A DNA stretch of 64,000 nt from Chthonomonadaceae bacterium (GTDB taxonomy: Bacteria > Armatimonadota > Chthonomonadetes > Chthonomonadales > Chthonomonadaceae), in NCBI GenBank assembly GCA_965246955.1, contig CBDFGA010000004.1:1888100-1952099 (forward strand). Reading direction: 5' to 3'. A model generated the notes under the pieces. It searched no databases. It was not told where the DNA came from and saw only the letters and a program-made list of their open reading frames with translations. This document shows, piece by piece, positions 2,812-51,804 of this stretch. How positions within the stretch are numbered: position 1 is the stretch's first letter; every line of letters begins with the position of its first letter. The position numbers were made by a program, and so were the translations under genes.

Positions 2812-2925
2812 CCGCCGCCAGAACGCAATGGCCCTGCGGCGGTTGCCGTCAGGCAGGAAACGCCCGCCGCCGCGCCGAAAGGATCGGCAGAAATTCGCCC
2901 GATGTTTTGCAATGAAGGACGCGCC

Positions 2926-4284
2926 ATGACCGACCCAACCGCCGCCAACTCCCCCGCTCCGCCCCCCGATGAACTCGCCGCTCTGCTGCAACTGGGCCAG
3001 CTCCTTAATTCCAGCCTGGACTTAAAGCACGTTCTGGAGACCGCCATTGAGCAGGTCATTGCGTTTGTCGGGGCGGAACGCGGCTTTATTCTGCTGGTGG
3101 ACGTGGAAAGCGGGCGCGTGTGGGGCGAGGCTCTCCGCAACATCGAAAAGGCGGCGCTGGAGGCCACCCTTTCCGGGGCGGACGAACACAACCGGGCGGA
3201 GATTAGCCGCTCGCTTGTGGAAAGCGTACTGGAAACGCGCCGCCCCGTGCTGGCCCACAACGCGATGGAAGACCCGCGCTTCGCGAACCGGCAGAGCGTG
3301 CAGCTTTCCAGCCTACGTTCCGTTCTGTGCGTTCCGCTGCTGGCGCAGGGGCGTTTGCTCGGAATCATCTATCTGGATAACCGCATTAAATCCGGCGTTT
3401 TCACCGATCACCATCTTTCGCTGCTGTCCGCTTTTGGCAATCAGGCGGCGGTCGCGCTGGAAAACGCCCGCCTTTACGACAATCTGCGCCGCTCCCTCGA
3501 AGAGCGAATCCGATTGCAGGACGAACTGCACCAGCAGGAGACGCAGCGGATCGCCTTAGAGGAAGCCAGCCGCTTAAAATCCGACTTTATCGGGTTTGTG
3601 GCGCATGAACTCCGCAACCCGCTCACCACGATTCGCGGCTACGTCCAGACCATGATGCAGGACGAAGAGAACACGCTGGGCGAGGAGATCAAGCAGGAAT
3701 TTTACGAGGCGATTGAAGCCGACTCCGACCGCCTGCTGGATATGATTAACGAACTGCTGGACGTATCGCGATTGGAAGCGGGGCGTCCGCTGTCGCTGGC
3801 CCTCAAAACGTTCGAACTGCGCCCGCTGCTGGAAAAACTGGCCCGCCGCCACCGCTTTTACAAATTTTTCACCCGCAAGCACGAAATGATTACCGACCTC
3901 GCGCCCGACCTGCCGGAAATGATTGAGGCGGACGAGGACAAGCTGAATCAAGTCTTCTCCAACCTCCTCTCCAACGCCATCAAATACTCGCCTGACGGGG
4001 GACAAATTCGTCTCTCCGCTGCCCGCGAAGGCGATGCAGTTCTGATTATTGTCAAGGATTCCGGCGTAGGAATGACCGCAGAACAGGCGGGCAAACTGTT
4101 TCAGCAGTATGAGCGTCTGGAGCGCGACGACATCAAAAACATTCCCGGAACCGGGCTTGGCCTGTATCTCGTGAAGCATCTGGTCGAAATGCACGGCGGC
4201 AAAATTTGGGCGGAAAGCCAGCCCGGACAGGGCAGCGCGTTCCATGTCGAACTCCCAATAAAAATGATGAATCATGAACGATGA
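2926..4284 (+). CDS. GAF-domain sensor histidine kinase
   Basis: GAF region followed by HisKA H-box (HELRNPLTTIRGY) and HATPase N/G boxes (GTGLGL). Start at 2926 has an AAGGA SD; 2902 is the alternative. Last eight codons lie inside repeat D1. Confidence 0.8.
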   Translation: MTDPTAANSPAPPPDELAALLQLGQLLNSSLDLKHVLETAIEQVIAFVGAERGFILLVDVESGRVWGEALRNIEKAALEATLSGADEHNRAEISRSLVESVLETRRPVLAHNAMEDPRFANRQSVQLSSLRSVLCVPLLAQGRLLGIIYLDNRIKSGVFTDHHLSLLSAFGNQAAVALENARLYDNLRRSLEERIRLQDELHQQETQRIALEEASRLKSDFIGFVAHELRNPLTTIRGYVQTMMQDEENTLGEEIKQEFYEAIEADSDRLLDMINELLDVSRLEAGRPLSLALKTFELRPLLEKLARRHRFYKFFTRKHEMITDLAPDLPEMIEADEDKLNQVFSNLLSNAIKYSPDGGQIRLSAAREGDAVLIIVKDSGVGMTAEQAGKLFQQYERLERDDIKNIPGTGLGLYLVKHLVEMHGGKIWAESQPGQGSAFHVELPIKMMNHER

Positions 4285-4367
4285 ATAATGAATCCAATAC
4301 GCCCGCTTGCTCGCCACATTCACGAATAGCAAGCGGGCGCATTTTGATTCATCATTCATCATTTTCC
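4264..4367. repeat. MITE-like palindromic element, family D (GAATGAT heptad arms), copy 1
   Basis: Terminal inverted repeats atgatgaatcatgaacgatgaataatgaatcc / ggattcatcattcatcat. Inner palindrome cgcccgcttgct..agcaagcgggcg. Second copy at 47304-47406. Confidence 0.8.
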
Positions 4368-5736: not shown

Positions 5737-6204
5737 ATGGCGCATACGATGATTGAAGGCGATATGATGGCGGGCGGAATTTCGCTGGCGATTGTGGTCA
5801 GCCGGTGGAATGAGTTCTTGACGAAAGAATTGCTGGCGGGGGCGTTAGACGCGCTGCGGCGGCACGGCGCGGACGATTCAAAAATTACGGTCGCGTGGGT
5901 CCCCGGCAGCTTCGAGATTCCAGTGGCGGTACAGGCGCTGGCGAAATCGGGGAAGTACGACGGAATTGTGGCGCTGGGCGCGGTGATTCGCGGGGCCACA
6001 AGCCACTACGACCATATCGCGGGGGCGGTCACGAGCGGCCTCTCCCGCATTGCGCTGGACACGGGCCTTCCCGTCGCGTTCGGCGTCCTGACAGTGGAGA
6101 GCATTGAGCAGGGCATCGAGCGCTCCGGCAGCAAAGCGGGCAACAAAGGCGCGGAAGCGGCCCTCGTCGCGGTCGAAATGGCGAATTTGCTGAAGAAGTT
6201 TTAG
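5737..6204 (+). CDS. ribH: 6,7-dimethyl-8-ribityllumazine synthase
   Basis: Lumazine synthase fold motifs (VVSRWNEF, GAVIRGATSHYD). Confidence 0.9.
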   Translation: MAHTMIEGDMMAGGISLAIVVSRWNEFLTKELLAGALDALRRHGADDSKITVAWVPGSFEIPVAVQALAKSGKYDGIVALGAVIRGATSHYDHIAGAVTSGLSRIALDTGLPVAFGVLTVESIEQGIERSGSKAGNKGAEAALVAVEMANLLKKF

Positions 6205-6314
6205 GTATTCAGGTGTTCGGTGTTCGGGTGTTCAGGTACTGGTCGCTTTCGTGGTAATTTGTATAAACTTTCATCGGTGAGATAAACGCCTGAACACCGA
6301 ACACCTGAACACCC
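6205..6314. repeat. MITE-like palindromic element, family A (GGTGTTC heptad arms), copy 1
   Basis: Arms attcaggtgttcggtgttcgggtgttcaggt / cctgaacaccgaacacctgaacaccc. Fills the ribH-ribE gap. Confidence 0.8.
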
Positions 6315-9290: not shown

Positions 9291-10226
9291 TCAAGTCGCA
9301 AGGCACGCTTCCAGCAGCGTCAACGTTCGGGATTGCGCGTCGAGGCGGGCGCGGATTCCCAGCGGCAGGGTGAGCGGGTTAGGGGCGTGACCGAACGGGA
9401 AACCGAAGAGGGCGGGGCGGTTCAGCGGCGTGAAAGTGTCCCGCCACAGCGAATCGGGCGTATTGATTTCCGGGCGGGCTTCCTGTTTTTGCCAGCCGGT
9501 GATTTCCCCGATAACAAAGCCCGCCGCCGATTGCAATAGCCCCGCATTCTTCAACTGCGTCAGGCAGCGGTCGGCGCGGTAAACCGCTTCGCCGACATCT
9601 TCAATCAAAACTAGTTTGTCCGTGAAATCGGGCGCGTCCGGCGTACCGCAGGCCGAGGCCAGCAAGGTAAGGCAGCCGCCCGCAAGCTCCCCCTCCACCA
9701 TGCCGCCGACAACCGTCTGCAAATTTTCCGAAGCGACAGGATATTCCCCGAAAGGTTCCATCACTTCTAAAATCCGCCAGAAAACGGACTGCGCCGCTGC
9801 GTCGCATTTTGCCAGCGTGGTCAGCATCGGGCCGTGAAATGTCACCAGTCCGCAGCGTCGCGCCAGCGCCAGATGCAGCGAGGTCACATCGCTGTACCCG
9901 ACGAAGATTTTGGGGTTGGCCCGAATTGCACTCCAGTCCAGCAAGTCCAGCAGGCGCATTGCTCCGTAGCCGCCGCGAACGCAGAAAATCGCTTTGACTT
10001 CCCGATGGGCAAAAAGGCGGTCCAGGTCAGCGGCGCGGTCGGCGTCACTGCCCGCCAGATAGCCGCAATGGAGCGCGGCATCCAGAACGCTTTTACCCAG
10101 CGCCACCCGATAGCCCCGCGCCTCCAGAAGCCGAACGCCCGCCGCAACCGTATCGGCGTCGGCAGGGCTGGCCGGGGCCGCAATCCCAATCAAATCGCCG
10201 GAACGCAGCGCTTTCGGTCGAATCAA
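9291..10226 (-). CDS. ldcA: LD-carboxypeptidase (peptidase S66, LdcA-like)
   Basis: S66 motifs (GYSDVTSLH, VLIEDVGE). Likely TTG start with AGGAGG SD. Longer ORF-track start runs into repeat C1. Confidence 0.75.
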   Translation of the reverse strand: MIRPKALRSGDLIGIAAPASPADADTVAAGVRLLEARGYRVALGKSVLDAALHCGYLAGSDADRAADLDRLFAHREVKAIFCVRGGYGAMRLLDLLDWSAIRANPKIFVGYSDVTSLHLALARRCGLVTFHGPMLTTLAKCDAAAQSVFWRILEVMEPFGEYPVASENLQTVVGGMVEGELAGGCLTLLASACGTPDAPDFTDKLVLIEDVGEAVYRADRCLTQLKNAGLLQSAAGFVIGEITGWQKQEARPEINTPDSLWRDTFTPLNRPALFGFPFGHAPNPLTLPLGIRARLDAQSRTLTLLEACLAT

Positions 10227-10268
10227 ATCGGCCTCCTGAAGAAAGGAAACAGGGAACAGAAAATACTT

Positions 10269-10409
10269 TATCCACGAAACGACACGAAGGGACACGAAAA
10301 AAGGAAATTCGACAAGAGGAAAAATCCAATCATTATCCTGTCAATCCTGAAAATCCCGTCAATCACGTCTAAATTCTTCTTCGTGTCCCTTCGTGTCCTT
10401 TGTGGATAG
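10269..10409. repeat. MITE-like element, family C (ATCCACGAAACGACACGAAGGGACACGAA arms), copy 1
   Basis: About 30-bp terminal inverted repeats. Inner aatcctgaaaatcccgt motif shared with copy 3. Other copies at 25295-25450 and 26150-26276. Confidence 0.85.
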
Positions 10410-10429: not shown

Positions 10430-11197
10430 TCAGCGCGGCAGCAAAATGGGCAGGGCGCGGGCGGGCGAGGCGACGGAATTTCGCGGCGCGGGGATTTGTC
10501 CCTCGTCCAGTTTTTCCATTGCGCCGACTGTCCAGGGGCGGGACTGTCCCACGAGAATCAGGCCGCTTTCCGTTAGACGCGCAATGCGGAATCGCCCGAT
10601 GTACTCCCCAACGCGGCGGTACACCGTCTGATCCAATTTTCCGGAACCCTCTTTGCCGCCGTTTTTCAGCGCAATCGTAAGCTGCGCGACCCGTTCCTGA
10701 CCGGCCTGATACACGCCGTCCAGCGTCACTTCGAGCGGCGGCGCAGCGACCATCTGCGCAACGGTCTGCGGCGGCGGGTTGTAGGCGGGGATGGGGGGGA
10801 AATTCGGAATCGGGCGCGTCTTGACGGTCGGCAGACTGCGCGTGACCTGCGGTTCCACTTTCGCAATCTGAATCGGGGCGGCAATCGTGCGGAAAGCGTC
10901 GGTATGCCCCCCGAAACTCGCGCCTACGCTGACGGGCGCGTCTGTGTCAATCGTATCGTCGAAGCGGCGCATCTGTCCTGGATTGCCCGCGCCTGCGATG
11001 ACCGTTCCCGTCCCGATGGGCGCAGCGGCGGGCGTTCCGCTCCCTGTCGCAGGATTGGCGGCAGGATTCGTCACGGTGGACGCCGTGTCTTTCGGGGCAA
11101 GCGCGGGAATCAACCGCGCAGCCGCAATAATCAAAATGACCACGATTCCAATAATTAGCCCGATAATCTTGGGCCGGTCTTCTGGTTTAGTTTGCAT
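10430..11197 (-). CDS. PilP-like pilus assembly protein (N-terminal TM, Pro-rich linker)
   Basis: C-terminal RVGEYIGRFRIARLTESGLIL resembles the PilP beta-domain. Located immediately downstream of the secretin. Confidence 0.45.
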   Translation of the reverse strand: MQTKPEDRPKIIGLIIGIVVILIIAAARLIPALAPKDTASTVTNPAANPATGSGTPAAAPIGTGTVIAGAGNPGQMRRFDDTIDTDAPVSVGASFGGHTDAFRTIAAPIQIAKVEPQVTRSLPTVKTRPIPNFPPIPAYNPPPQTVAQMVAAPPLEVTLDGVYQAGQERVAQLTIALKNGGKEGSGKLDQTVYRRVGEYIGRFRIARLTESGLILVGQSRPWTVGAMEKLDEGQIPAPRNSVASPARALPILLPR

Positions 11198-11213
11198 AGT
11201 TTTTATACCTCAA

Positions 11214-11442
11214 TTCAGGTGTTCGGGTGTTCAGGTGTTCGCCGCGTGTTGAAAACACCCGTCTGTGTAGCCTGCGGCTTCGTGTCCTTCGGACACACCA
11301 ATCAGGTTTTGACTGCTGCATCCGAAGGACGCGAGGCGCTTGCGCCACACAGACGGGTATATGTTGATGGGTAACACTTGGTCGCTGGTCGCCGACGGGT
11401 GTTTTCAACACGCTGCGTCAATCCTTGAACACCTGAACACCT
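11214..11442. repeat. Composite MITE-like element, family A arms with nested inner palindromes, copy 2
   Basis: Outer arms ttcaggtgttcgggtgttcaggtgttc / gaacacctgaacacc. Inner inverted repeat cgtgttgaaaacacccgtc. Occupies the whole pilQ-pilP intergenic gap. Confidence 0.8.
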
Positions 11443-13289: not shown

Positions 13290-13317
13290 GGGTTTCTCCT
13301 GAAGAAGATATTATGCA

Positions 13318-13375
13318 TTAGATACCAGATATTAGGAACAATAACTAATATCTGGTATCTAGTATCTAATATCTC
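13318..13375. repeat. AT-rich perfect 16-bp inverted repeat (agataccagatattag / ctaatatctggtatct), family G
   Basis: Lies between pilO-like stop and pilQ start. Extra partial arm agtatctaatatct. Confidence 0.7.
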
Positions 13376-14048
13376 ACCTGGCTTGCGGCGGCGCGGGGGC
13401 CGCATCCGGTTTGTACACGAAACGGGTCAGCAGCAGGGTGGCGTGCAGTTCGCCGGTGGCGCTGTCGCCGCCATTGATTTGCAGGCTGTTGATATTGATG
13501 GCGCGGGGCGCTCCATAGCGCACGCCGCCCCCGCTAAAGCGATAATTGTACAGATTGCGCACAAACGTATTGATATTTGGAAAAGACCCGACGACGATCA
13601 GCGTGGTTGACAGCGGGCGGACGCCGAGCGGCAGACTGGTCAGCGAGTAGCCCGCTTTTTTGTCGTCCTCTTTTTTTGATGCGCTGGACGCGCCGGTTTT
13701 CGCCCCCGCCGCCTGCGTCCCAATCGTCGGAAGCGCCGACGGAACTGCCGGAACGATGCTCGTAGGGCGGACGCCGGAAGTCTCCATCAGCCGCTTTAAC
13801 TGCCCGTAAAACTCCGGGTCTTCGCGCATGGTGTCAGGCGCGGCGAGTCGCCGCGTCACGTCCTTGAACTGCGACTGGAGGGTAATCCGGTTCTGCTCCT
13901 GAATGGCGATATTGCGGCTGGTCTGTTGCTGCTCCTGTTTCGCGGTGGTGTAGCGTCCCCACTGATACCACCCGAAACCGAAGGCGATAATCAGCGCGAC
14001 GCTCCACGTAATCCAGGTCAAAATCGTCGTTAAATTGAAGCGCCCCAT
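13374..14048 (-). CDS. PilO-like (GspM-like) pilus assembly protein
   Basis: Single N-terminal TM, then coiled coil and periplasmic domain. AAGGAG SD before ATG at 14048. ORF-track start 14087 is an alternative. Confidence 0.6.
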   Translation of the reverse strand: MGRFNLTTILTWITWSVALIIAFGFGWYQWGRYTTAKQEQQQTSRNIAIQEQNRITLQSQFKDVTRRLAAPDTMREDPEFYGQLKRLMETSGVRPTSIVPAVPSALPTIGTQAAGAKTGASSASKKEDDKKAGYSLTSLPLGVRPLSTTLIVVGSFPNINTFVRNLYNYRFSGGGVRYGAPRAININSLQINGGDSATGELHATLLLTRFVYKPDAAPAPPQAR

Positions 14049-14090
14049 AAGGCTCCTTGCCGCGCTGCGGCCTGCGCGAATCGGCATTGA

Positions 14091-15806: not shown

Positions 15807-15840
15807 TCCGTTGTCAATTCTCCCCAATCAATGCAAAAAT

Positions 15841-15892
15841 GCGGGTGTTCGGGTGTTTAGGTGTTCGGTGTCAATACCGAATACCCGAATAC
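15841..15892. repeat. Family A heptad-repeat element (degenerate), copy 3
   Basis: gcgggtgttcgggtgtttaggtgttcggtgtc..gaatacccgaatac. Confidence 0.6.
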
Positions 15893-15904
15893 TTTATACT
15901 TTCC

Positions 15905-20712: not shown

Positions 20713-20722
20713 AGACTGCGCA

Positions 20723-20836
20723 GGGTGTCGGGGTTCGGGTGTCGGGTGTCGAAAAATGCGCTCGCTATCGAAACTTAGTACAGGCTTTGATTGCATGAGA
20801 ATTGTCCGACACCCGACACCCGAACCCCGACACCCT
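20723..20836. repeat. MITE-like element, family B (GGTGTCG heptad arms), copy 1
   Basis: Arms ggtgtcggggttcgggtgtcgggtgtcg / cgacacccgacacccgaaccccgacaccc. Fills the pilB-pilC gap and overlaps the pilB stop. Confidence 0.85.
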
Positions 20837-23423: not shown

Positions 23424-25280
23424 TTGGCGCACACTTCCGAACAATGGCAGGCCCTCGCAACGCAGCTGCGGGCCGACAGCATCCGCAGCACGACCGAGGC
23501 CGGCAGCGGACACCCGACTTCCAGTATGTCCGCCGCCGATTTAATGGCGGTATTGCTTTATGACTACCTGCATTACGACTGGAACAATCCGCATAATGTG
23601 ATGAACGACCGGCTGATTTTTTCCAAAGGCCACGCCGCGCCGCTGCTCTACGCGATGTACAAAGCGGCGGGCGCAATCACCGACGCCGAAATGATGACGC
23701 TGCGCAAAATGGGCAGCCGCATCGAAGGCCACCCCGTGCCGCTTCCCAACGGCCTGCCGTTCGTGGATCTCGCGACCGGTTCGCTGGGTCAGGGGCTTCC
23801 GGCGGGCGTCGGCATGGCCCTGAGCGCTAAAATGCTCGACAAATCGCCCGTGAAAATCTACGTCCTGCTCGGCGACTCCGAAATGGCGGAAGGCAGCAAC
23901 TACGAGGCGCTGGAACTGGGCGGACATTACAACCTGACTAACCTTGTGGCGATTCTGGACATGAACCGCCTCGGACAGCGCGGCCCGACTATGCTGGAAT
24001 GGCATGGGGAAATCTACGCCGCCCGCGCCGAAGCGTTCGGCTGGCGGGCGATTGAGATTGACGGGCAGGACGTGAACGCGGTCAACGCCGCCTACGCCGA
24101 AGCGCAGACTTCGGACAAACCCGTTTTTATCGTCGCGAAAACCAAAAAAGGCGCGGGCGTTTCGTTCCTTGCCGACCATGAGGGCTGGCACGGCAAAGCG
24201 CTTCCGGCGGACAAGGCCGTCGAAGCGCTGGCGGAACTCGGCAACCCGGCGGGCAATGTTCGGACTCCCAATCTCGGCTCGCATCCCGGCGCGTCGGCGC
24301 TGACGGGCGAGGCGAAAGAATTTGTCGCGCCGAAGTACGATCTCGGCGTCAAAGTCGCGACCCGCGAAGCGTATGGCGACGCGCTCGTCGCGCTGGGCGC
24401 GGCGCACCCGAACGTCGTGGCCCTCGATGGCGAGGTTAGCAACTCGACTTTTGCGGACAAGTTCAAGAAAGCGTACCCGGAGCGCTTCTTTGAGCAGTAC
24501 ATCGCGGAGCAGCAATTAGTCAGTTCGGCGGTCGGGATGCAGGTCATGGGCAAAATCCCGTTTGCGTCCACCTTTGCGGCGTTCTTCGCCCGCGCCTACG
24601 ATCAAGTCCGCATGAGCGCGATTTCGCAGGCCAATATCCGCCTTGCGGGTTCCCACGCGGGCGTCTCCATTGGCGAAGACGGCCCCTCGCAGATGGCGCT
24701 GGAAGATTTGGCCTCCATGCGCGGAATCTTCGGCAGCACCGTCCTCTATCCCTCCTGCGCCACGACGACGGCCCACCTCGTCAAGCAGATGGCGGAAACG
24801 AACGGCGTCGTTTATATGCGCACGACCCGCGAGAAACTGCCCGTCCTCTACGGCCCGGACGAGATGTTCCCGATTGGCGGCAGCAAGGTCGTCAAGCAGT
24901 CGGACAAAGATGTCGCTACGGTCATTGGCGCGGGAATCACGCTGCATGAGGCGATCAAGGCGTATGACCTGCTCGCCGCCGAAGGCGTGTCTATCCGCGT
25001 GATTGACCTGTACTCCGTCAAGCCGATTGACGCCGCGACCCTGAAAGCGGCTGCGGCGGCTACGAATGGCAACCTGATCGTGGTGGAAGACCACTGGGCG
25101 CAGGGCGGACTCGGCGACGCGGTGCTGGAAGTGTTCGGCGGCCCCGATGGGCCGCACCCGAACGTGACGCGCCTCGCGGTCAACGCCATGCCGGGATCGG
25201 GCGCTCCGCAGGAACTCGTGGATGCGGCGGGTATCGGGGCCGCCGCCATTGTCGCGGCGGTCAAAGCGACTCAGAAGTAG
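23424..25280 (+). CDS. tkt: Transketolase
   Basis: TPP-binding GDGE-type motif (LLGDSEMAEGSNYEA), HGxxL region. TTG start preceded by AAAGGA. Confidence 0.9.
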   Translation: MAHTSEQWQALATQLRADSIRSTTEAGSGHPTSSMSAADLMAVLLYDYLHYDWNNPHNVMNDRLIFSKGHAAPLLYAMYKAAGAITDAEMMTLRKMGSRIEGHPVPLPNGLPFVDLATGSLGQGLPAGVGMALSAKMLDKSPVKIYVLLGDSEMAEGSNYEALELGGHYNLTNLVAILDMNRLGQRGPTMLEWHGEIYAARAEAFGWRAIEIDGQDVNAVNAAYAEAQTSDKPVFIVAKTKKGAGVSFLADHEGWHGKALPADKAVEALAELGNPAGNVRTPNLGSHPGASALTGEAKEFVAPKYDLGVKVATREAYGDALVALGAAHPNVVALDGEVSNSTFADKFKKAYPERFFEQYIAEQQLVSSAVGMQVMGKIPFASTFAAFFARAYDQVRMSAISQANIRLAGSHAGVSIGEDGPSQMALEDLASMRGIFGSTVLYPSCATTTAHLVKQMAETNGVVYMRTTREKLPVLYGPDEMFPIGGSKVVKQSDKDVATVIGAGITLHEAIKAYDLLAAEGVSIRVIDLYSVKPIDAATLKAAAAATNGNLIVVEDHWAQGGLGDAVLEVFGGPDGPHPNVTRLAVNAMPGSGAPQELVDAAGIGAAAIVAAVKATQK

Positions 25281-25294
25281 ACTGCGCAAAAAAT

Positions 25295-25450
25295 CTATCC
25301 ACGAAACGACACGAAGGGACACGAAACAAGAGAACAGAAGAAAGGGAAAAGGCGACAGGAAAAAGAAATTCGATCTTTACCCTGTCCACCCTGCAAACCC
25401 CGCTCCTCCTGTCTCTTCTTCGTGTCCCTTCGCGTCATTTCGTGGATAGA
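25295..25450. repeat. MITE-like element, family C, copy 2
   Basis: ctatccacgaaacgacacgaagggacacgaaa ... ttcgtgtcccttcgcgtcatttcgtggataga. Confidence 0.85.
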
Positions 25451-25639
25451 TTTTTTGTGGAACTTTTTGCATCCTTTGCCGGTTGAACGGACGAGGCCCG
25501 CTGACGAATCGTAACCATTTCCCGAACATGAAACGCGGCAAAACATTCGCAACGCGACATTTTGTTGTAATAAACGCAACGGGCTGACAATCGCTTCCGA
25601 TTTTTGTATAATAGGTCGAAGCGATAGGATGAGGGCCAG

Positions 25640-26164
25640 ATGCTGGGAAACACGAAAAACGACAAAACGATTTGTAAACAAAGGACGCTGGATGCGACCG
25701 ACCATCAGATTTTGCGCCTGCTCCACGCAGACGGACGCAGGACGCAGGAGAGCATCGCGCACGAGGTTTTCCTTTCCCGCCCCGCCGTCCATGATCGGGT
25801 GAAGCGGCTGGAAGAAACGGGTGTGATTACGGGCTATCAGGCGCAGATTGACTGGCGTAAAGTCGGGCAGGCCCTTTCCCTCTTTGTCTGGGTGCGCACT
25901 TCGGGCGGCAAACTCCACGATCTCGCGGACGCAATTATGACGTTCAGCAACCGCGATACGCTGGTTGAGGAGTGCCACCTCATCACCGGCGACTGGTGTC
26001 TGTTGCTGAAAGTTCGCACCGTCTCCACCACTTCCCTGCAAATTTTGCTTAACCGCCTGCGTGATATGCCCCGCGTCCGCAACACCATGACGACGCTCGT
26101 TCTGTCCTCTGCCGGCGAGAATTTTACCGAAATAGAAACGCAGGATGAGCTATCCACGAAATGA
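25640..26164 (+). CDS. lrp: Lrp/AsnC family transcriptional regulator
   Basis: HTH_AsnC N-terminus (LDATDHQILRLLHADGRRTQESIAHEV) plus RAM domain. Last codons (ELSTK) come from the repeat C3 arm. Confidence 0.85.
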   Translation: MLGNTKNDKTICKQRTLDATDHQILRLLHADGRRTQESIAHEVFLSRPAVHDRVKRLEETGVITGYQAQIDWRKVGQALSLFVWVRTSGGKLHDLADAIMTFSNRDTLVEECHLITGDWCLLLKVRTVSTTSLQILLNRLRDMPRVRNTMTTLVLSSAGENFTEIETQDELSTK

Positions 26165-26276
26165 CACAAAAGAACACGAAAAAAGGGAAGAGGGAAGAAA
26201 ATGCAACCCTAATCCTGAAAAATCCTGTTCATCCTCTCTATTCTTCTTCGTGTCGCTTCGTGTCATTTTGTGGATA
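26150..26276. repeat. MITE-like element, family C, copy 3
   Basis: ctatccacgaaatgacacaaaagaacacgaa ... ttcgtgtcgcttcgtgtcattttgtggataa. Inner aatcctgaaaaatcctgt. Confidence 0.85.
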
Positions 26277-26312
26277 AAAAAAACGCATTGAACTTTTGAC
26301 GGCGGTTGTGGG

Positions 26313-28697: not shown

Positions 28698-28940
28698 ATG
28701 AACACTCGAATTGCAGGCCTGTTTTCGGCCCTGACGCTGTTCGGCGTCCTGACGGTCTCCTCGTCCTTCGCGCAGGACAAAATGGGCAAAATGGACAAGA
28801 TGTCCCACAAAGGCAAAATGGGCCACTCCAAAATGGCGCATAAAGGCAAAATGATGCACGGCAAAATGTCCCACAAGGGCAAAATGATGCACGGCAAGAT
28901 GAGCCATTCCAAAATGTCCCACGACAAAATGAAGAAATAG
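28698..28940 (+). CDS. Small secreted Met/His/Lys-rich repeat protein (putative periplasmic metal-binding protein)
   Basis: Signal peptide ending FAQD, then about eight HKGKM/SHxKM repeats. AAAGGA SD 8 nt upstream of ATG. Confidence 0.7.
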   Translation: MNTRIAGLFSALTLFGVLTVSSSFAQDKMGKMDKMSHKGKMGHSKMAHKGKMMHGKMSHKGKMMHGKMSHSKMSHDKMKK

Positions 28941-28971: not shown

Positions 28972-29022
28972 CTGAAAAAGACCGCCGGACAGTTTTCGTG
29001 ACTGACCGGCGGTCTTTTTTGT
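28972..29022 (+). terminator. Rho-independent terminator
   Basis: aagaccgccgg..ccggcggtcttttttg hairpin plus T-run. Confidence 0.75.
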
Positions 29023-29036: not shown

Positions 29037-29474
29037 ATGGAAATCGAAAAACAAAAAACGCGAAAACGCGGCAGACCGTCCAACGCGACCACGCGGGCCG
29101 AAAAGTACACGTTATCGCTCGGCCCCGATTTCACAGACTGGGTAAAAAGCCAATCCGGTGGACTATCGGAGTTAGTTCATCGCGACCTAAACTCGCCCGC
29201 ATTTGCCTCCAGCAAGACTTTTGGCGGAACGCTACGCGGCGAGGAGTTAACAATGCCGCGGCAAATGACGAATCTCCGTCGCCCTATACTAGAGCGCCGC
29301 CTGCTTCGAGGGGAGCGCGAGAAATCAGAAGCGGCGCTGGACGCAGCAGACAACCAGAAATGGGACGAATCCTTCGCATCTACACCGACCGCGAAACTTC
29401 GCAAGATGGCGGAAAAAGTCCGGGCAGATTACGCGGCAGGCAAGACACGGCTTGGAGGCTTTGGTGGCGAATGA
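29037..29474 (+). CDS. Putative antitoxin / DNA-binding partner of the downstream toxin
   Basis: TATAAT 8 nt upstream of ATG. Stop overlaps the toxin start (ATGA). Confidence 0.4.
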   Translation: MEIEKQKTRKRGRPSNATTRAEKYTLSLGPDFTDWVKSQSGGLSELVHRDLNSPAFASSKTFGGTLRGEELTMPRQMTNLRRPILERRLLRGEREKSEAALDAADNQKWDESFASTPTAKLRKMAEKVRADYAAGKTRLGGFGGE

Positions 29475-29755
29475 TTTCCCGGACCACGCAGGACTTCCGG
29501 GAATTATTCAAAAATCTTCCAGTCAGAATCCAGGCGCAGGCGCGGCAAAGTTATGCGGTGTGGCAGTCTGATTCCTTTCATCCCGGCCTGCATTTTAAGC
29601 CTGTCCACAAAAGCTTTCCTGAAATATGGTCTGTCCGCATCGGCAGGAATTGCCGGGCGTTAGGGCTTCGTGAGGCGGTGGATGGACACGATACGATCTT
29701 CTGGTATTGGATCGGGCCGCATAGCGAATACGACCGCCTGCTCAAACAGTTCTAA
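29471..29755 (+). CDS. RelE/ParE-superfamily toxin (HigB-like mRNA interferase)
   Basis: Motif WSVRIGRNCRALG...WYWIGPHSEYDRLL resembles the HigB/RelE-like C-terminal H..EYD region. 94 aa. Translationally coupled to upstream ORF. Confidence 0.5.
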   Translation: MISRTTQDFRELFKNLPVRIQAQARQSYAVWQSDSFHPGLHFKPVHKSFPEIWSVRIGRNCRALGLREAVDGHDTIFWYWIGPHSEYDRLLKQF

Positions 29756-30321: not shown

Positions 30322-30558
30322 GCCGGCCCCTTCCTCTACTGCAACTCTCCCTGCGATTATTATGCGCGGGTTCTGCCTGCGTGTCAAGCGGGCCGACGCG
30401 AAAAAAAACGAAATGGCACGGAATAGAGTATAATAAATTACAGGGATAGAATCGTAGATTTCTGGTGGCGCGGCGCGGTGTTCGCAGGCCGTCCGAATCG
30501 CCTGATCGGGCAACGCAGGCCCGAAAGCGTCGTTTCCACTGCGCAAAAGGAGGCGGTC

Positions 30559-31155
30559 ATGTCTCTGTTTATCGCTTTACTGGTCCTTGGACTAATCGGG
30601 ATGCTGCTGATGGCGATTCCCGGCCTGAATCACGGACACGCGGGAATAGGCTCCCACGTTCCGCCGCACGTTCCGCGCCTGCCCGCCGCGCCCCACGCCG
30701 CCGCGCATCATACGCTGCCCGCCGGACAAAGCTCGTCCCTGACGCGCTTTATCCCCTCGCCCCGCGTGATTTTCGGATTTCTGGCGCTGTACGGCGCTTT
30801 TGGCAATGCGTTTGAGAAAGCGGGGCATTTGCCCGTTTCGCTGGCGGCGCTGGCGGCCATTGTCCCGGCGTTTTTGCTGGAGCGGTACGCGCTCAGTCCT
30901 TTTTGGAACCGCCTGATGGCCTTTCAGGGAACGCCCTGCGCCCCGCTGGAAACACTGGTGATGTGCGAGGCCAAAGCGGTCACGCCGTTCCGCAACGGGC
31001 GTGGCATGGTCAGCGTGGTGTACGAAAACCGACTGGTGCAAATGCGGGCGGACTTGCTGCCCGCCCAAATAGCAATGCCCGTCCGCGTGGGCGACACGCT
31101 GCGGGTCGAAGAAATTGACGGCAAGAATGAGCGGGTCGTGGTCTCGCTAGCATAG
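30559..31155 (+). CDS. NfeD-like membrane protein (stomatin/flotillin operon partner)
   Basis: N-terminal TM helices. C-terminal OB-fold beta region (GMVSVVYENRLVQMRADLL..VGDTLRVEEIDGKNERVVVS). AAAAGGAGG SD. Confidence 0.65.
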   Translation: MSLFIALLVLGLIGMLLMAIPGLNHGHAGIGSHVPPHVPRLPAAPHAAAHHTLPAGQSSSLTRFIPSPRVIFGFLALYGAFGNAFEKAGHLPVSLAALAAIVPAFLLERYALSPFWNRLMAFQGTPCAPLETLVMCEAKAVTPFRNGRGMVSVVYENRLVQMRADLLPAQIAMPVRVGDTLRVEEIDGKNERVVVSLA

Positions 31156-31281
31156 AAAACAGAAAACAGAAAACAGAAAACAGAAGAAAATGCCCGGTCT
31201 GCCAACGTTTCAATCGAAGCGCAAACTTTCCAAACTCGGAACGCCCTTCTGTATTCTGTTTTCTGTTTTCTGTCTTCTTCC
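31152..31281. repeat. MITE-like element, family F (GAAAACA heptad arms)
   Basis: tagaaaacagaaaacagaaaacagaaaacagaag ... cttctgtattctgttttctgttttctgtcttc. Fills the nfeD-flotillin gap. Confidence 0.8.
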
Positions 31282-34187: not shown

Positions 34188-35147
34188 TTAATGTACTTTC
34201 GGATCAGTCTCCGCTGTCTGCGGTTCGACCCGATTGATACACACTTGCTCATGCAGCGGCAAGACTTTGGGCGCTCCTTTGGAGAAACGACCCGGCTTGC
34301 GGGCATACGCTTGCTCTAAAGTTTCCTGCCGCGCCTGCTGAACGGCAGCGGCTTTTCCCATGTGAACCATTTCCGGGGTCAGCAACGCAATGCCGGTATG
34401 GTACTGCTGCGTGTTATAGAACGTCAGAAACGCCGCGCAAAACGTCCGCGCTTCCGCAATGCTATCAAAATGACCGGGAAACTGAGGCGCATATTTCACC
34501 GTCTTGAACTGCGCCTCCGAAAACGGGTTGTCATTGGAAACGCGCGGACGCGAGTGCGAACGGGTCACGCCCAGATCACAAAGCAACTCCGAAACCGTTT
34601 TAGAGACCATCGGCCCGCCCCGATCCGCATGAAGGGTGAGCGCATCGCGAGAAATCCCGTGACGCTGGCAGGCCGTTTCGATCAGTTGCGCCGCCAGATG
34701 TTGACACTCCCGTTCGGAGACAAGCCAGCCGACCACGCAGCGACTGAAAATATCCAGCACGACATACAGGCGGTATCCCTGTCCTTTGGCGGGGCCGCGC
34801 AGTTTGGTGATGTCCCACGTCCACACCTGGTTGGGCGCGGTGGCGAGAAGCACGGGGCGGGTATGTTTTTGGTGGCGCGATTGCCGCCTCCTTTCGGCAA
34901 CCTGTTTGTTTTCGCGCAAAAGCCGATACATCGTCGCGATTGAGGCCAAATAGCAGCCTTCGTCGAGCAACGCGGCGTAAACCTGGCGAACCGACCGATC
35001 CAAAAAGCGTTCCGAGTGCAGATGCGCGAGCAGTTCCGCTTTTTCCGCCGCCGAAAGGCTTTGGGACGTTGAATTTGTCCGCAGTCCCAAAACCAACTGA
35101 CCGCCGTTTCGCTGACGATAGAAAGTCGCCCGGCTTTTGCCCACCAC
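34188..35147 (-). CDS. IS3 transposase OrfB (DDE integrase core)
   Basis: rve domain motifs (WTWDITKL, YVVLDIFSRCVVGW, HADRGGPM, SRPRVSNDNPFSE). Confidence 0.85.
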   Translation of the reverse strand: MVGKSRATFYRQRNGGQLVLGLRTNSTSQSLSAAEKAELLAHLHSERFLDRSVRQVYAALLDEGCYLASIATMYRLLRENKQVAERRRQSRHQKHTRPVLLATAPNQVWTWDITKLRGPAKGQGYRLYVVLDIFSRCVVGWLVSERECQHLAAQLIETACQRHGISRDALTLHADRGGPMVSKTVSELLCDLGVTRSHSRPRVSNDNPFSEAQFKTVKYAPQFPGHFDSIAEARTFCAAFLTFYNTQQYHTGIALLTPEMVHMGKAAAVQQARQETLEQAYARKPGRFSKGAPKVLPLHEQVCINRVEPQTAETDPKVH

Positions 35148-35203
35148 CGCGCAGGCTCTTTTGATGCCCGTGAAGCGCGCGGTCTCTGCGATGAACGACG
35201 CGG

Positions 35204-35587
35204 CTATCCGGTCGGCAGCGTGAGGTTCATCAAGTCGGAAAGTTTTTTTTGGAGTTCCACGAGCGCTTTGAGTTTTTGGTTCTCCAACTGGAGGGCTTGC
35301 AGAGTTCGGGCGTCCTGCTGGCGTTGGGCTGCTCGCTCTTTTCGCTTCTGCTTTTGGCGCGGGTCATTTTGGGCGACGAGTTTTCCCTCTTCGTACTGCT
35401 TTCGAAAGGAAGCGAGAGTGGAAGAGTAAATGGCCTCGCGGCGCAGGATGGTTCCGAGTTGTCCGCGCTCGGTGCATTGGTCGGCTTCGCGCAGGATGCG
35501 AAGTTTGTCGGCGACGGTGAAGCGGCGGCGGCTGGCAGGCTGGCTGACGTGCGGGTCAGGCAACAGGCGGATATTCAGGTCAGACAT
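35204..35587 (-). CDS. IS3 transposase OrfA (HTH)
   Basis: HTH_Tnp_1-like N-terminus, leucine-zipper-like C-terminus (LQLENQKLKALVELQKKL). Confidence 0.85.
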   Translation of the reverse strand: MSDLNIRLLPDPHVSQPASRRRFTVADKLRILREADQCTERGQLGTILRREAIYSSTLASFRKQYEEGKLVAQNDPRQKQKRKERAAQRQQDARTLQALQLENQKLKALVELQKKLSDLMNLTLPTG

Positions 35588-37534: not shown

Positions 37535-38035
37535 ATGGAATTTGAGTGGGATGAAACGAAAGCGCAGACTAATTTTGTGAAGCATGGCGTCACTTTCTAC
37601 GAGGCGCAGGAGATTTTTGATGATCCACTTTCCGGGCTTTTGTCTGACCCGGATCATTCGAACGAAGAAAAACGCTCTGTTATTATTGGCATGACCGACA
37701 AAAACCGCCTGCTTTTTGTTTCGTTTGCCGAGCGGGATGAGACAATACGCATCATCAGCGCCCGCGAAGCAACGCGCAAAGAAAACGCTATGAGGATCAA
37801 CCCTGAATCGGATTTAGACGATGAATTGCGCCCGGAATATAACGAGGAAGACATGAAGAATATGACACGAGGCAAATATGTGGGCCGCGTCAAGCGAAAG
37901 TGTCCGCCGACCGTGCAGTTGGAGGCAGATGTCGTAGGCGCTTTTCCTGATGCCGCCGCAGTGAACGAGGCGCTGCGTTTCCTGATCCGCGTGACAAATC
38001 AGAATCTGAAAACTCCGCCAGGTGAGTCCGTATAA
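37535..38035 (+). CDS. BrnT toxin fused in-frame to BrnA-like antitoxin domain (single 166-aa ORF)
   Basis: N-terminal half FEWDETKAQTNFVKHGVTFYEAQEIFDDP...IISAREATRKE (BrnT). C-terminal half ...ELRPEYNEED...AVNEALRFLIRVT (BrnA-like). No stop between them. Confidence 0.7.
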   Translation: MEFEWDETKAQTNFVKHGVTFYEAQEIFDDPLSGLLSDPDHSNEEKRSVIIGMTDKNRLLFVSFAERDETIRIISAREATRKENAMRINPESDLDDELRPEYNEEDMKNMTRGKYVGRVKRKCPPTVQLEADVVGAFPDAAAVNEALRFLIRVTNQNLKTPPGESV

Positions 38036-42843: not shown

Positions 42844-42845
42844 AG

Positions 42846-42958
42846 GGGGTCGGGGTTCGGGTGTCGGGTGTCGAAAAACAAGCTTGTATGCTGAACGTTT
42901 GTAACAATTTCAAGCGAACAAGGCATTGCTCGACACCCGACACCCGAACCCCGACACC
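42846..42958. repeat. MITE-like element, family B, copy 2
   Basis: ggggtcggggttcgggtgtcgggtgtcg ... cgacacccgacacccgaaccccgacacc. Solo arm-like fragment also at 48630-48660. Confidence 0.85.
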
Positions 42959-47303: not shown

Positions 47304-47406
47304 GAATGATGAATGATGAATGATGAATCAAAATGCCTCCTTTGTTATTCGTGAAAACGGACAGCAAACGGGCGTATTAGATTCATCATTCATCATTCAT
47401 CATTTT
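47304..47406. repeat. MITE-like element, family D, copy 2
   Basis: gaatgatgaatgatgaatgatgaatc ... gattcatcattcatcattcatcatt. Lies between rsmI start and MBL gene stop. Confidence 0.85.
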
Positions 47407-48226
47407 TCTTAATAGTAAATCGCAATCCGTCGTAGCCCGGTGTGATATGATGCGGCGCGAAGGCCGCTTCCAGCTCTTCGTGCGTCAGGCCGCCGTGATG
47501 CGAAAAATGCGTTGTGACGAACGGACTTTCGGGCGCGAGATTGCCTTCCGCAATCCACTTTTCGCGCATGGCAATCACCTGCGCCATGTTCAGGTGACCG
47601 GGGTAGTCGCTGTCATGGGGGCCATTGGTACACTCCATGACCACGCCGTCCATCTTCACCGACTGTAAAGAGTTCCACGTTGCCGCGTCGTACCATCCCG
47701 TGTCGCTGGCATAGAGCAGAGTTGCGCCGTCCGCGCCCTCGATCAGGTAGTTAAAGCAGGTCATGTCCGGGTCGTGCCGCGCCAGAATCGGCGTCACGCG
47801 GTAATCTGAAACTTGCGCGGTCTGCCACGCCGTCAGCGTGTGGAGGGTGAGCGGAACATCCGCCGCATCGAACCGCCGCGCCAGTTCTTCGGTGACTTCC
47901 GGCGGGCCGAAAACGGGCAGGCGGAAATCACGCGGCGGACTCACGAAATACTTGCCGAGGTATTGCAGCTCCGCCGGACTGAAATGGTCGTCATGCGCGT
48001 GGGTGAAAAGCAGGGCCTCGACGCAGGCCAGGTCTACTCTATGCTGAATGATCTGGTGCAGCGTATCGGGAGAGAGATCAATTTTCAGTGTATCGTCAAT
48101 TAAGGCGCTGGCCCGCGTTCGGACATTTTTGCCGCCCAGTTTCCGCGCCCGAAGGCACGCCGCGCAGCGGCAAAACAGCCCCGGCCATCCCTCCGCCGCA
48201 GAAGTTCCGAGCAACTGAATCTCCAT
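47393..48226 (-). CDS. MBL-fold metallo-hydrolase (PhnP-like)
   Basis: HxHxDH motif (THAHDDH), downstream His/Asp ligands. Confidence 0.75.
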   Translation of the reverse strand: MEIQLLGTSAAEGWPGLFCRCAACLRARKLGGKNVRTRASALIDDTLKIDLSPDTLHQIIQHRVDLACVEALLFTHAHDDHFSPAELQYLGKYFVSPPRDFRLPVFGPPEVTEELARRFDAADVPLTLHTLTAWQTAQVSDYRVTPILARHDPDMTCFNYLIEGADGATLLYASDTGWYDAATWNSLQSVKMDGVVMECTNGPHDSDYPGHLNMAQVIAMREKWIAEGNLAPESPFVTTHFSHHGGLTHEELEAAFAPHHITPGYDGLRFTIKKNDE

Positions 48227-48383
48227 AGAATCCCCGTTTCCCGCGCCAACCAACGCGCCGCGCCTCTGAATCACGGAGAATCCTACAACGCCCCGCAATA
48301 TAAATTATAGGCTGAATCGCAACAGTCCGCTGTGACTTTTTTCACACCCGCAGTGTAAATTTTTACGCTGCGATTTTTTCGCG

Positions 48384-48614: not shown

Positions 48615-48666
48615 GCGCTTACCCTCTGATGCCCAATACCCGACCCCCGAACCCCGACGCCCGTTC

Positions 48667-49700: not shown

Positions 49701-49725
49701 TCCATTTTTGTCACTATTCACCGCG

Positions 49726-49830: not shown

Positions 49831-49863
49831 AACTAAACGCCCTTGCCATGAAAAAAGCCGAAC

Positions 49864-49900: not shown

Positions 49901-49909
49901 GCGCGGCGG

Positions 49910-51782: not shown

Positions 51783-51804
51783 GTTCCATTCTTCGCGGGA
51801 TTTG

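What the first reader, a model, noticed from the sequence alone, without database searches (positions are those of the whole stretch)
10269..10409. Family C MITE-like elements (three copies) contributing codons to flanking genes
Three 130-160-bp elements (10269-10409, 25295-25450, 26150-26276) have about 30-bp terminal inverted repeats (ATCCACGAAACGACACGAAGGGACACGAA) and a shared internal aatcctgaaaa.tcc.gt motif. The lrp stop codon lies inside a repeat arm, so the last five residues of Lrp are element-derived. Spurious N-terminal extensions of ldcA and a shadow ORF start MSLRVVSWI arise from the same arm.
Basis: seen in the sequence. Interest (0 to 1): 0.6.

Follow-up and report, generated by a model that had tools for sequence, protein, structure and literature searches.

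The report
Palindromic CACGAA-repeat elements between genes
Three copies of a 126-153 bp non-coding palindromic repeat, whose ends are arrays of the hexamer CACGAA, lie at gene ends in this Armatimonadota genome; the same family occurs in Acidobacteriota and another lineage, so it is a real, probably mobile repeat family of a broadly known kind, not a new type of system.

Summary
Three elements (10269-10408, 25296-25448, 26151-26276) carry about 30-nt inverted ends and fold into long hairpins (z -6 to -14). The lrp stop codon and its last four codons lie in an arm. The same arm creates the spurious 'MSLRVVSWI' ORF starts, one of which is in the public ldcA annotation.

New here:
- Each arm is (T)ATCCACGAA plus 2-3 further CACGAA cores spaced 9-11 nt. 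Cores are 81-100% conserved, linkers 44-66%.
- Arms are 89% identical between copies, interiors only 53-65%.
- Near-identical arms, and once an approximately 85-nt half element, occur in Acidobacteriota and 'Deltaproteobacteria RBG_13_61_14' contigs.
- Related Chthonomonadaceae-like contigs carry family C variants at the same tkt and lrp 3' ends. The ldcA slot holds hairpins of other families.
- The window holds at least five other hairpin families with tandem-heptamer arms; 10 of 29 spacers fold at z <= -5.

No target-site duplication, autonomous partner, empty site, Rfam family or sense-strand bias was found. 'MITE-like' therefore fits the shape, but membership is unproven. The best reading is a MITE/REP-like palindromic repeat recognised through CACGAA iterons. 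Interest is moderate.

The parts
10269..10408 (.). Family C copy 1 (140 nt). Left arm 10269-10298 is TATCCACGAAACGACACGAAGGGACACGAA; right arm is 10379-10408. It lies between the stop of the 255-aa gene (10430-11197, -) and the ldcA start (10226, -), inverted relative to transcription compared with copies 2 and 3.
   Evidence: RNA fold is -54.8 (+) and -66.3 (-) kcal/mol, z -7.3 and -8.0.
25296..25448 (.). Family C copy 2 (153 nt). The inverted repeat extends to 25287-25457 (CAAAAAATC...GATTTTTTG). It begins 15 nt after the tkt stop (TAG 25278-25280) and lies upstream of the lrp promoter-like site.
   Evidence: I5: 39-nt arms, 95%. Fold is -73.9 (+) and -96.1 (-), z -11.1 and -13.8. A hairpin followed by a T-run is flagged.
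26151..26276 (.). Family C copy 3 (126 nt). Its left arm overlaps the 3' end of lrp.
   Evidence: Fold is -44.7 (+) and -51.7 (-), z -6.3 and -6.9. An orthologous element is present in L011 at 10515-10633.
25640..26164 (+). lrp (Lrp/AsnC regulator, 174 aa). Its last codons cTA TCC ACG AAA and the stop TGA (26162-26164) lie inside the left arm of copy 3.
   Evidence: C-terminal tails vary among homologues; P0002 ends FLSTK.
9291..10226 (-). ldcA (LD-carboxypeptidase, 311 aa), real start TTG 10226-10224 behind AGGAGG. The ORF extension 10227-10295, starting GTG in the left arm of copy 1 (MSLRVVSWIKYF...), is spurious.
   Evidence: P0196 is 334 aa against 310-311 aa in homologues; Pfam Peptidase_S66.
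24516..25322 (-). Shadow ORF antisense to tkt. It starts GTG in the left arm of copy 2 (MSLRVVSWIDF...).
   Evidence: It overlaps the transketolase gene 23424-25280 (+).
25584..25612 (+). Promoter-like site of lrp (CTGACA-17-TATAAT), downstream of copy 2. Copy 2 therefore sits at the end of the tkt transcription unit.
   Evidence: 11 of 12 consensus matches.
4257..4365 (.). Sister hairpin family D (AATGATG heptamer arms), copy 2. The stop of the sensor-kinase gene 2902-4284 lies in its arm.
6204..6313 (.). Sister hairpin family A (GGTGTTC heptamer arms), between ribH and ribE. It starts at the ribH stop codon.
   Evidence: z -7.3.
11209..11441 (.). Composite hairpin: outer family A arms with an inner inverted repeat. 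It lies between the secretin stop and the start of the 255-aa gene.
   Evidence: z -13.4.
13306..13374 (.). Sister hairpin family F (AGATATT-type heptamer arms). It abuts the stop of gene 13374-14087 (-).
   Evidence: z -7.9.
20722..20836 (.). Sister hairpin family B copy 1 (GGTGTCG heptamer arms), between T2SSE and T2SSF. It overlaps the T2SSE stop by 2 nt.
   Evidence: z -12.9.
31154..31278 (.). Sister hairpin family E (AGAAAAC x4 arms). It overlaps the stop of gene 30478-31155.
   Evidence: z -10.0.
42844..42958 (.). Sister hairpin family B copy 2. It starts directly after the LptF/G stop (42843).
   Evidence: z -10.4.
47305..47404 (.). Sister hairpin family D copy 1. The stop of gene 47393-48298 (-) lies in its arm.
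   Evidence: z -8.8.

Best explanation
Family C is a family of 105-155 bp non-coding palindromic repeat elements.

Anatomy (shown):
- Each end is an array that always starts (T)ATCCACGAA. It continues with 2-3 more CACGAA cores spaced 9-11 nt, about one helical turn apart.
- The two arrays are inverted.
- The interior is a poorly conserved imperfect palindrome, purine-rich on one side and pyrimidine-rich on the other. Either strand can therefore fold into a stem of about 60-70 bp.

How it most likely works:
- The elements are non-autonomous mobile DNA of the MITE/REP kind. They are copied within genomes and exchanged between phyla (sharing shown; transfer inferred).
- A trans-acting DNA-binding enzyme recognises the CACGAA iterons in the ends (inferred from the conservation pattern).
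- They land in, and survive only in, the short spacers after stop codons. There they persist for long periods (persistence shown).
- They are co-transcribed as very stable hairpins that may end, process or stabilise transcripts (inferred). Copy 2 has the shape of a bidirectional terminator.

Side effects (shown): an arm supplies the last four codons and the stop of lrp, and GTG in an arm seeds false ORF starts.
For: - Copies at three unrelated loci have 87-100% identical arms and weak but significant interior homology (53-65% against 44-47% for shuffled sequence).
- Periodic conservation: in 14 arms from 5 genomes the first unit ATCCAC(G/A)AA is essentially invariant, and the inner cores C-A-C-G-A-A are 81-100% conserved. 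Linker positions are 44-66% conserved.
- Cross-phylum sharing: exact-pattern scans found the arm in 10 genome loci (3 Acidobacteriota MAG contigs, 7 contigs of 'Deltaproteobacteria RBG_13_61_14') and in 20 metagenome loci. The window itself is Chthonomonadaceae-like Armatimonadota.
- The right half of copy 2 is 84% identical over a 43-nt alignment with a Pyrinomonadales contig, and by eye the two are collinear over about 85 nt with one roughly 12-nt insertion.
- The elements lie between genes at 3' ends, in either orientation.
- Hairpin stability is z -5 to -14 on both strands.
- Copy 2 lies between the tkt stop and the lrp promoter, with A6...T6 flanks.
Against: - No target-site duplication. 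TA flanks are not general.
- No autonomous element with CACGAA ends was found. The only transposase in the window is an rve type at 34188-35147, and the IS in L011 has unrelated ends.
- No Y1/RAYT gene appears among about 60 ORFs scanned.
- No empty site was found. The tkt and lrp 3' sites are also occupied in relatives with 92% Tkt and 78% Lrp identity. In L033 both arms carry the same changed unit (20 of 20 bp). This fits a host-maintained structure as well as it fits mobility.
- The ldcA slot holds hairpins of other families in L035 and L036.
- There were no matches in phage or plasmid collections.
- The whole genome could not be read, so the copy number is only extrapolated.
Confidence: 0.5

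Rival explanations
1. Host-maintained structural or regulatory hairpins, in the manner of REP/BIME or non-canonical terminators. The genome keeps a long hairpin in many spacers directly after stop codons, for transcript termination, processing or stabilisation, or as sites for a host DNA-binding protein. Family C is one sequence type that fills such slots and is no longer, or never was, a transposon.
For: - 10 of 29 spacers in the window fold at z <= -5.
- By manual tally from the gene calls and hairpin coordinates, 12 of 17 hairpins start within 0-2 nt of, or overlap, the upstream stop codon.
- The same slots in the syntenic pilus operon of L035 and L036 hold hairpins with unrelated arms, while the flanks (stop codon, ribosome-binding region) are conserved to the nucleotide.
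- The tkt and lrp slots are occupied in relatives.
- Both arms co-vary in L033.
Against: - A purely structural role does not explain why the arm sequence (the CACGAA cores) is conserved between loci and between phyla, while linkers and interiors drift.
- Sense strands are not more stable than antisense strands (7 of 20), so there is no sign of selection at RNA level.
- Copy 3 and the L011 copy have no U-tract.
- L012 and L034, more distant relatives, lack such hairpins (0 of 9 spacers in L012; 1 of 10 in L034, a canonical terminator).
Confidence: 0.3
2. Palindromes generated in place. Replication slippage expands short units in one arm, and intramolecular template switching copies the change to the other arm. 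Similarity between loci is secondary, through short-patch conversion or convergence.
For: - The arms are tandem short units that can pair in several registers.
- L033 has one unit fewer in both arms.
- Unit sequences differ between related genomes at the same slot.
- Family B copies share arms (97% identical) but have unrelated loops of equal length.
Against: - This cannot explain a 29-nt arm identical within 0-3 mismatches at unrelated loci and in different phyla, nor the approximately 85-nt collinear half element in a Pyrinomonadales contig.
- Arms of about 30 bp are too short for efficient homologous conversion without flanking homology (established knowledge).
Confidence: 0.07
3. The arms are arrays of DnaA-box-like sites (terminal TTATCCAC(A/G)) that bind or titrate the replication initiator.
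For: Three of six arm termini are within one mismatch of TTATCCACA, and one (26269-26277) is perfect. The units are spaced about one helical turn apart.
Against: - The count in the window is not enriched (10 against 6.1 expected; 8 of 100 shuffles reach 10).
- The inner units share only CAC with the box.
- Acidobacteriota copies start cgATCCACG.
- The resemblance was noticed post hoc.
Confidence: 0.03

Closest known systems
Correia elements (CREE/NEMIS) of Neisseria and ERIC/IRU of enterobacteria (characterised MITE-like palindromic repeats; from my own knowledge, not retrieved here)
   Same: They are 100-155 bp and non-coding, with inverted ends of about 26-30 bp or a full-length imperfect palindrome. 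They lie between genes in either orientation, are co-transcribed and fold as long RNA hairpins. They can provide terminators or processing sites and can overlap gene ends.
   Different: - Those families show a TA target duplication and are conserved along their whole length within one genus or family.
- Here no duplication is demonstrable, and only the iterated CACGAA cores and the terminal ATCCACGAA are conserved.
- This family spans at least three lineages.
REP/BIME and REPIN-RAYT systems (PMC2817692, PMC3116915, PMC3733652)
   Same: They are extragenic palindromic repeats concentrated at gene 3' ends, with inverted doublets that form hairpins. Several families can occur per genome, and they persist for long periods.
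   Different: - A REP unit is itself a 20-40 nt palindrome tagged by GTAG or CGTC, and it is tied to a RAYT (Y1 transposase) gene.
- A family C arm is not self-complementary and has no such tag.
- No Y1 gene is present in the window.
Paired tandem-heptanucleotide 'putative global regulator binding sites' of Geobacter metallireducens (PMC2700814) and TAACTGA heptamer repeats of Beggiatoaceae, cyanobacteria and Bacteroidetes (PMC4679880)
   Same: They are arrays of short tandem units between genes, often as inverted pairs. Their phylogenetic distribution is patchy and suggests horizontal spread. Function and mechanism are unknown. They are the nearest analogue of the sister families A, B, D, E and F in this window.
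   Different: - The unit sequences differ.
- Family C has 9-11 nt units with a conserved 6-nt core, rather than exact heptamers.
- No link to stop-codon-adjacent slots or to orthologous turnover was reported in the passages I read.
Rickettsia palindromic elements (RPE; from my own knowledge)
   Same: They are palindromic repeats that contribute codons to host genes.
   Different: RPEs insert in frame inside ORFs and are translated as internal segments. Here only the last four codons and the stop of one gene come from an arm.
Transposon ends with iterated transposase-binding sites (Tn7, Mu; from my own knowledge)
   Same: Several short binding sites are arranged in direct order in each end, and the two ends are inverted.
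   Different: Those are kilobase-scale autonomous elements with 22-bp sites and TG...CA termini. No such element with CACGAA sites was found.

Membership tests
MITE | Short (<300 bp) and non-coding | tested here: met
   The elements are 126-153 nt. Only spurious ORFs cross them.
MITE | Terminal inverted repeats | tested here: met
   Arms are about 30 nt and 83-93% complementary within each element.
MITE | Direct target-site duplication flanking the element | tested here: not met
   No direct repeat of 3 nt or more is present. TA flanks the three window copies and the L011 copy. It is missing in L033 (GTGGATg) and in Acidobacteriota copies (cgATCCAC...GTGGATc/t). TA cannot be told apart from the inverted repeat itself.
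MITE | Many dispersed copies in a genome | tested here: inconclusive
   There are 3 copies in 64 kb, and one family C variant in each of L011, L033, L035 and L036 (14-21 kb each). The whole 2.96-Mb genome could not be fetched.
MITE | Cognate autonomous IS with the same ends | tested here: inconclusive
   None was found in the window or in 36 loci. The rve transposase at 34188-35147 and the IS in L011 have unrelated ends.
MITE | Insertion polymorphism (filled versus empty sites) | tested here: inconclusive
   The tkt and lrp 3' sites are filled in relatives too. L012 lacks the lrp element, but another gene lies there. The ldcA site holds other hairpin families.
REP / REPIN | The unit is a 20-40 nt imperfect palindrome with a GTAG or CGTC tag | tested here: not met
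   The arm ATCCACGAAACGACACGAAGGGACACGAA is a direct array, not self-complementary, and has no GTAG or CGTC end tag (definition from PMC3733652).
REP / REPIN | Associated RAYT (Y1 transposase) gene flanked by the repeats | tested here: inconclusive
   No PF01797-type hit appears among about 60 window ORFs. The rest of the genome was not available.
Intrinsic (rho-independent) terminator | G+C-rich stem directly followed by a U-tract | tested here: inconclusive
   Copy 2 is followed by GATTTTTTG and preceded by CAAAAAATC. Copy 1 has only a U-rich tail. Copy 3 and the L011 copy have none.
Known RNA families (Rfam 15) | Match at the gathering score | tested here: not met
   There were 0 matches in the window at gathering scores. 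The only hits were generic long-hairpin matches to plant miRNA precursor models, far below threshold.

The most novel reading that the evidence does not exclude
The mobile or selected unit is the arm module, not the whole element. Chthonomonadaceae-like genomes keep fixed hairpin 'slots' directly after stop codons. Arm modules (CACGAA iterons, or tandem heptamers) are installed into these slots or swapped between them by a mechanism that targets hairpins and leaves no duplication. That mechanism is shared across phyla. This would be an undescribed way of propagating DNA repeats, and possibly a genome-wide layer of control between cistrons.
Probability: 0.15. Interest if true: 0.8.

Novelty: new variant of a known kind. 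Interest (0 to 1): 0.45.

Why it matters
- Annotation: these repeats corrupt gene models. One public protein (ldcA, 334 aa) already carries an extension derived from an arm, and lrp ends inside an element.
- Biology: the family offers a tractable case of a small palindromic repeat shared between Armatimonadota, Acidobacteriota and another lineage. The conservation pattern, a hexamer once per helical turn, points to a specific but unidentified binding protein.
- Wider question: the heptamer-armed sister families, and the turnover of arms at conserved slots after stop codons, bear on an old open question. It asks how REP-like repeats spread and why genomes keep them.
- If the hairpins end or process transcripts, they would define operon architecture in a poorly studied phylum.

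Tried and rejected
- Rfam at gathering scores found nothing. In E-value mode it gave only sub-threshold hits to plant miRNA hairpin models.
- The phage contig scan and blastn against plasmids found nothing.
- A literature search for the arm sequence found nothing relevant.
- TA target duplication was rejected as general.
- A DnaA-box reading of the termini is weak, with no enrichment.
- I tested whether a shared inner motif AAAATGC next to the arms marks a common core across families. By manual count, 7 of 23 occurrences in the window abut hairpin arms. The motif lies inside some elements and outside others and is common in coding DNA, so this was left open.
- I tested for RNA-level selection through G.U asymmetry. 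The minus strand folds better for all three copies, whatever the direction of transcription. Across 20 hairpins only 7 are more stable on the sense strand, so this was rejected.
- Candidate autonomous partners, the rve transposase in the window and the IS5-like element in L011, have unrelated ends.
- The window's own genome could not be fetched by exact protein look-up.
- The 'stop codons in all three frames' idea for heptamer arms fails, because several units contain no stop codon (read directly from the sequence).

Full report
**1. Observation**

The three elements exist at 10269-10408 (C1, 140 nt), 25296-25448 (C2, 153 nt) and 26151-26276 (C3, 126 nt). An 18-nt core matches all six arms, against 0.05 expected. 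In C2 the inverted repeat extends to 39 nt at 95% complementarity (25287-25457).

The whole element is palindromic, not just the ends. Each copy folds into one long hairpin on either strand, with energies of -45 to -96 kcal/mol and z of -6.3 to -13.8. It pairs with a purine-rich left half.

**2. Effects on genes**

- lrp (25640-26164) ends gag cTA TCC ACG AAA TGA. An arm therefore supplies four residues (LSTK) and the stop.
- The nearest Lrp homologue (P0002, 78% identity) ends FLSTK. Its contig L011 has a family C element at exactly that place, 10515-10633.
- A 73% homologue (L012) has no element and a different tail.
- ORFs 9291-10295(-) and 24516-25322(-) start at GTG in a left arm and read MSLRVVSWI.
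- The public ldcA protein P0196 (334 aa) includes this extension, while homologues are 310-311 aa. The real start is TTG at 10226, behind AGGAGG.

**3. Host and context**

Named relatives of Tkt and LdcA are Chthonomonadaceae (Armatimonadota) at about 60-75% identity. The source contig is 2.96 Mb but could not be fetched.

- C1 lies between a 255-aa gene and ldcA, at the end of a type IV pilus/T2SS-like operon.
- C2 lies between the tkt stop and a good lrp promoter match.
- C3 lies between lrp and a cytochrome b gene, followed by DUF1003 and a molybdopterin oxidoreductase gene.
- C1 is inverted relative to transcription, compared with C2 and C3.

**4. Anatomy of the arms**

Between copies the arms are 87-100% identical (mean 89%). 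The interiors are only 53-65% identical, against 44-47% for shuffled sequence.

Further family C variants occur in related contigs: L033 11866-11971, L035 6992-7100 and L036 17541-17641. With these added, 14 arms from five genomes share one design:

- an essentially invariant first unit (T)ATCCAC(G/A)AA;
- then 2-3 units of 9-11 nt, whose last six bases C-A-C-G-A-A are 81-100% conserved;
- linkers between the cores that are 44-66% conserved.

A conserved hexamer once per helical turn, in direct order within each end, with the two ends inverted, is the pattern expected for iterated protein-binding sites. It is not the pattern expected for an RNA stem or for neutral drift. That step is inference.

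**5. Distribution**

An exact-pattern scan of one genome per species found the arm in three Acidobacteriota MAG contigs and in seven contigs of 'Deltaproteobacteria bacterium RBG_13_61_14'. A metagenome scan found 20 more loci. Phage contigs and plasmids gave nothing.

- In Acidobacteriota the arms form short hairpins (arm, about 20-nt loop, arm). They also occur in the opposite arrangement and as single arms.
- In RBG_13_61_14 they sit in mosaics with related modules (CGCAGAT, CACAAAG, CACAGAG units), separated by purine-rich spacers.
- The right half of C2 (interior plus arm) is 84% identical over a 43-nt alignment with a Pyrinomonadales contig, L005. By eye the two are collinear over about 85 nt with one roughly 12-nt insertion.

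The family is therefore homologous across phyla, which implies horizontal transfer.

**6. Tests of mobility**

- There is no direct duplication of 3 nt or more at any copy.
- The TA next to the window copies is not general.
- No gene flanked by CACGAA ends was seen. The only transposase in the window is an rve type (34188-35147), without matching ends. The IS in L011 ends GAGCCTATCTGACAATT.
- No Y1/RAYT domain appears among about 60 ORFs.
- No empty site was found. The tkt 3' site is occupied in L033 (Tkt 92% identical) by a variant in which both arms carry the same shortened array (ATCCACGAAGAACACGAATT, 20 of 20 bp). The lrp 3' site is occupied in L011.

Dispersal and cross-phylum sharing argue for mobility. 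A transposon mechanism is not demonstrated.

**7. Family C is one of many families**

The window holds at least five other hairpin families. Their arms are tandem heptamers: GGTGTTC, GGTGTCG, AATGATG, AGAAAAC and AGATATT. All are very stable, with z of -6 to -13.

- Ten of 29 spacers of 50-400 nt fold at z <= -5.
- By manual tally from the gene calls and hairpin coordinates, 12 of 17 hairpins begin within 0-2 nt of, or overlap, the upstream stop codon. They end 10-20 nt before the next start.
- In the syntenic pilus operons of L035 and L036 (LdcA 81% and 79% identical), the same spacers carry hairpins with unrelated arms (GGGAAAA, GGGAAGAG, GGCATCA, GGCATGAG). The flanks are conserved to the nucleotide.
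- The two family B copies share arms (97% identical) but have unrelated loops of equal length.
- Across 20 hairpins the sense strand is not more stable than the antisense strand (7 of 20). There is thus no signature of RNA-level selection.

**8. Interpretation**

The best-supported reading (0.5) is a MITE/REP-like non-autonomous palindromic repeat. Its ends are CACGAA iteron arrays recognised by an unidentified protein. It spreads within and between genomes and persists in spacers after stop codons, where it forms long hairpins in transcripts.

The main rival (0.3) is that these are host-maintained slot hairpins, with family C as one filler type. Generation in place by slippage and template switching (0.07) cannot explain identity across phyla. 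A DnaA-box reading (0.03) rests on a weak, post hoc resemblance.

**9. Comparison with known systems**

- In shape and context the family works like Correia or ERIC elements (my own knowledge) and like REP/REPIN.
- It fails the REP definition: the arm is not a palindromic unit, has no GTAG or CGTC tag, and no RAYT gene was seen.
- It fails one MITE criterion, the target duplication.
- Arrays of tandem heptanucleotides in pairs have been listed as sequences of unknown function in Geobacter metallireducens (PMC2700814). Heptamer repeats with a patchy cross-phylum distribution have been described in Beggiatoaceae and cyanobacteria (PMC4679880).
- From memory, E. coli REPs within about 15 nt of a stop codon were reported to stall terminating ribosomes (Liang et al. 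2015). That paper did not appear in the one search made for the topic.

**10. Verdict**

The label 'MITE-like' is fair as a description but unproven as membership. I rate it a new variant of a known kind, of moderate interest (0.45). The interest comes mainly from the iteron-like arms, the cross-phylum sharing and the turnover of hairpin families at conserved slots.

Noticed in passing
window 4257-4365, 6204-6313, 11209-11441, 13306-13374, 15838-15893, 20722-20836, 31154-31278, 42844-42958, 47305-47404, 48630-48685: At least five further hairpin families have arms made of tandem heptamers (AATGATG, GGTGTTC, AGATATT, GGTGTCG, AGAAAAC). They fill spacers between co-directional genes, and most start at or within 2 nt of the upstream stop codon.
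   Followed up: partly
L035 458-546 and 3333-3447; L036 7113-7170 and 9893-9975, compared with window 13306-13374 and 10269-10408: Orthologous spacers of the pilus operon in three related genomes all hold hairpins. The arm units are unrelated (GGGAAAA, GGCATCA, AGATATT; GGGAAGAG, GGCATGAG, CACGAA), while the flanks are conserved to the nucleotide. L036 keeps a CTAATATCTAG remnant of the window's family F arm.
   Followed up: partly
window 20722-20836 and 42844-42958: The two family B copies have 97% identical arms. Their loops are both 55 nt and are not significantly similar (54-59% against 49% for shuffled sequence).
   Followed up: yes
window 15836, 20753, 26198, 31187, 47330 (+); 4345, 10419 (-); L036 9915: The heptamer AAAATGC abuts hairpin arms of several different families (by manual count, 7 of 23 occurrences in the window). 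It lies on the loop side in some cases and outside in others. Its meaning is unknown.
   Followed up: partly
window 26269-26277, 10268-10276, 10401-10409: Arm termini resemble the DnaA box TTATCCACA, with one perfect match and two at one mismatch. There is no overall enrichment in the window.
   Followed up: yes
window 10227-10295 (public protein P0196): The deposited ldcA protein is 334 aa and begins with the arm-derived MSLRVVSWIKYF... Homologues are 310-311 aa, so the start appears to be mis-annotated.
   Followed up: yes
window 34188-35587: There is an IS-like unit with an rve (integrase core) transposase and a small upstream ORF. No clear terminal repeats were found, and it is unrelated to the hairpin arms.
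   Followed up: partly
window 29360-29755, 37535-38035, 51888-52175, 52869-53348, 57001-57387: Toxin-antitoxin and nuclease genes are scattered through the window: ParE-like, BrnT (twice), HNH and HEPN.
   Followed up: no
window 49600-58900 (for example 50019-50318 and 55815-56114; 53385-53444 = 58755-58814; 50581, 56377 and 57427): This region has several diverged duplicated segments, a 60-nt stretch repeated at 100% identity, and a recurring promoter-like 'TTATTATACAGCATAA' motif. The motif is also seen upstream of a gene in L011 (about 9510).
   Followed up: no
window 28796-28922; L012 10564-10866: A small gene encodes tandem K-M-x-H-type histidine-rich repeats. It lies next to the cytochrome b and molybdopterin oxidoreductase genes in both genomes.
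   Followed up: no
window 28975-29019: This is a canonical bidirectional intrinsic terminator (AAAAAGACCGCCGG...CCGGCGGTCTTTTT). The genome therefore also uses ordinary terminators.
   Followed up: no
L002, L006, L008, L009, L010, L013, L015, L021 (RBG_13_61_14-like contigs): Next to the module mosaics lies a recurring promoter-like sequence (AAAACTGCAACATTT..ATATAAT), followed by a small hydrophobic ORF (MNWAKTKSRAVL...). It is repeated on many contigs.
   Followed up: no
L033 8585-8719: This hairpin has arms ACCGCAGAGAACACAGAGGGACGCAGA. It uses the same unit grammar as family C with a CRCAGA core, abuts a stop codon, and resembles modules in the RBG_13_61_14 contigs.
   Followed up: partly
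window 11259-11278; L012 5324-5366: The motif CCCGTCTGTGTAGCCT is shared between the inner repeat of the composite hairpin in the window and a 20-bp-stem hairpin in L012.
   Followed up: no
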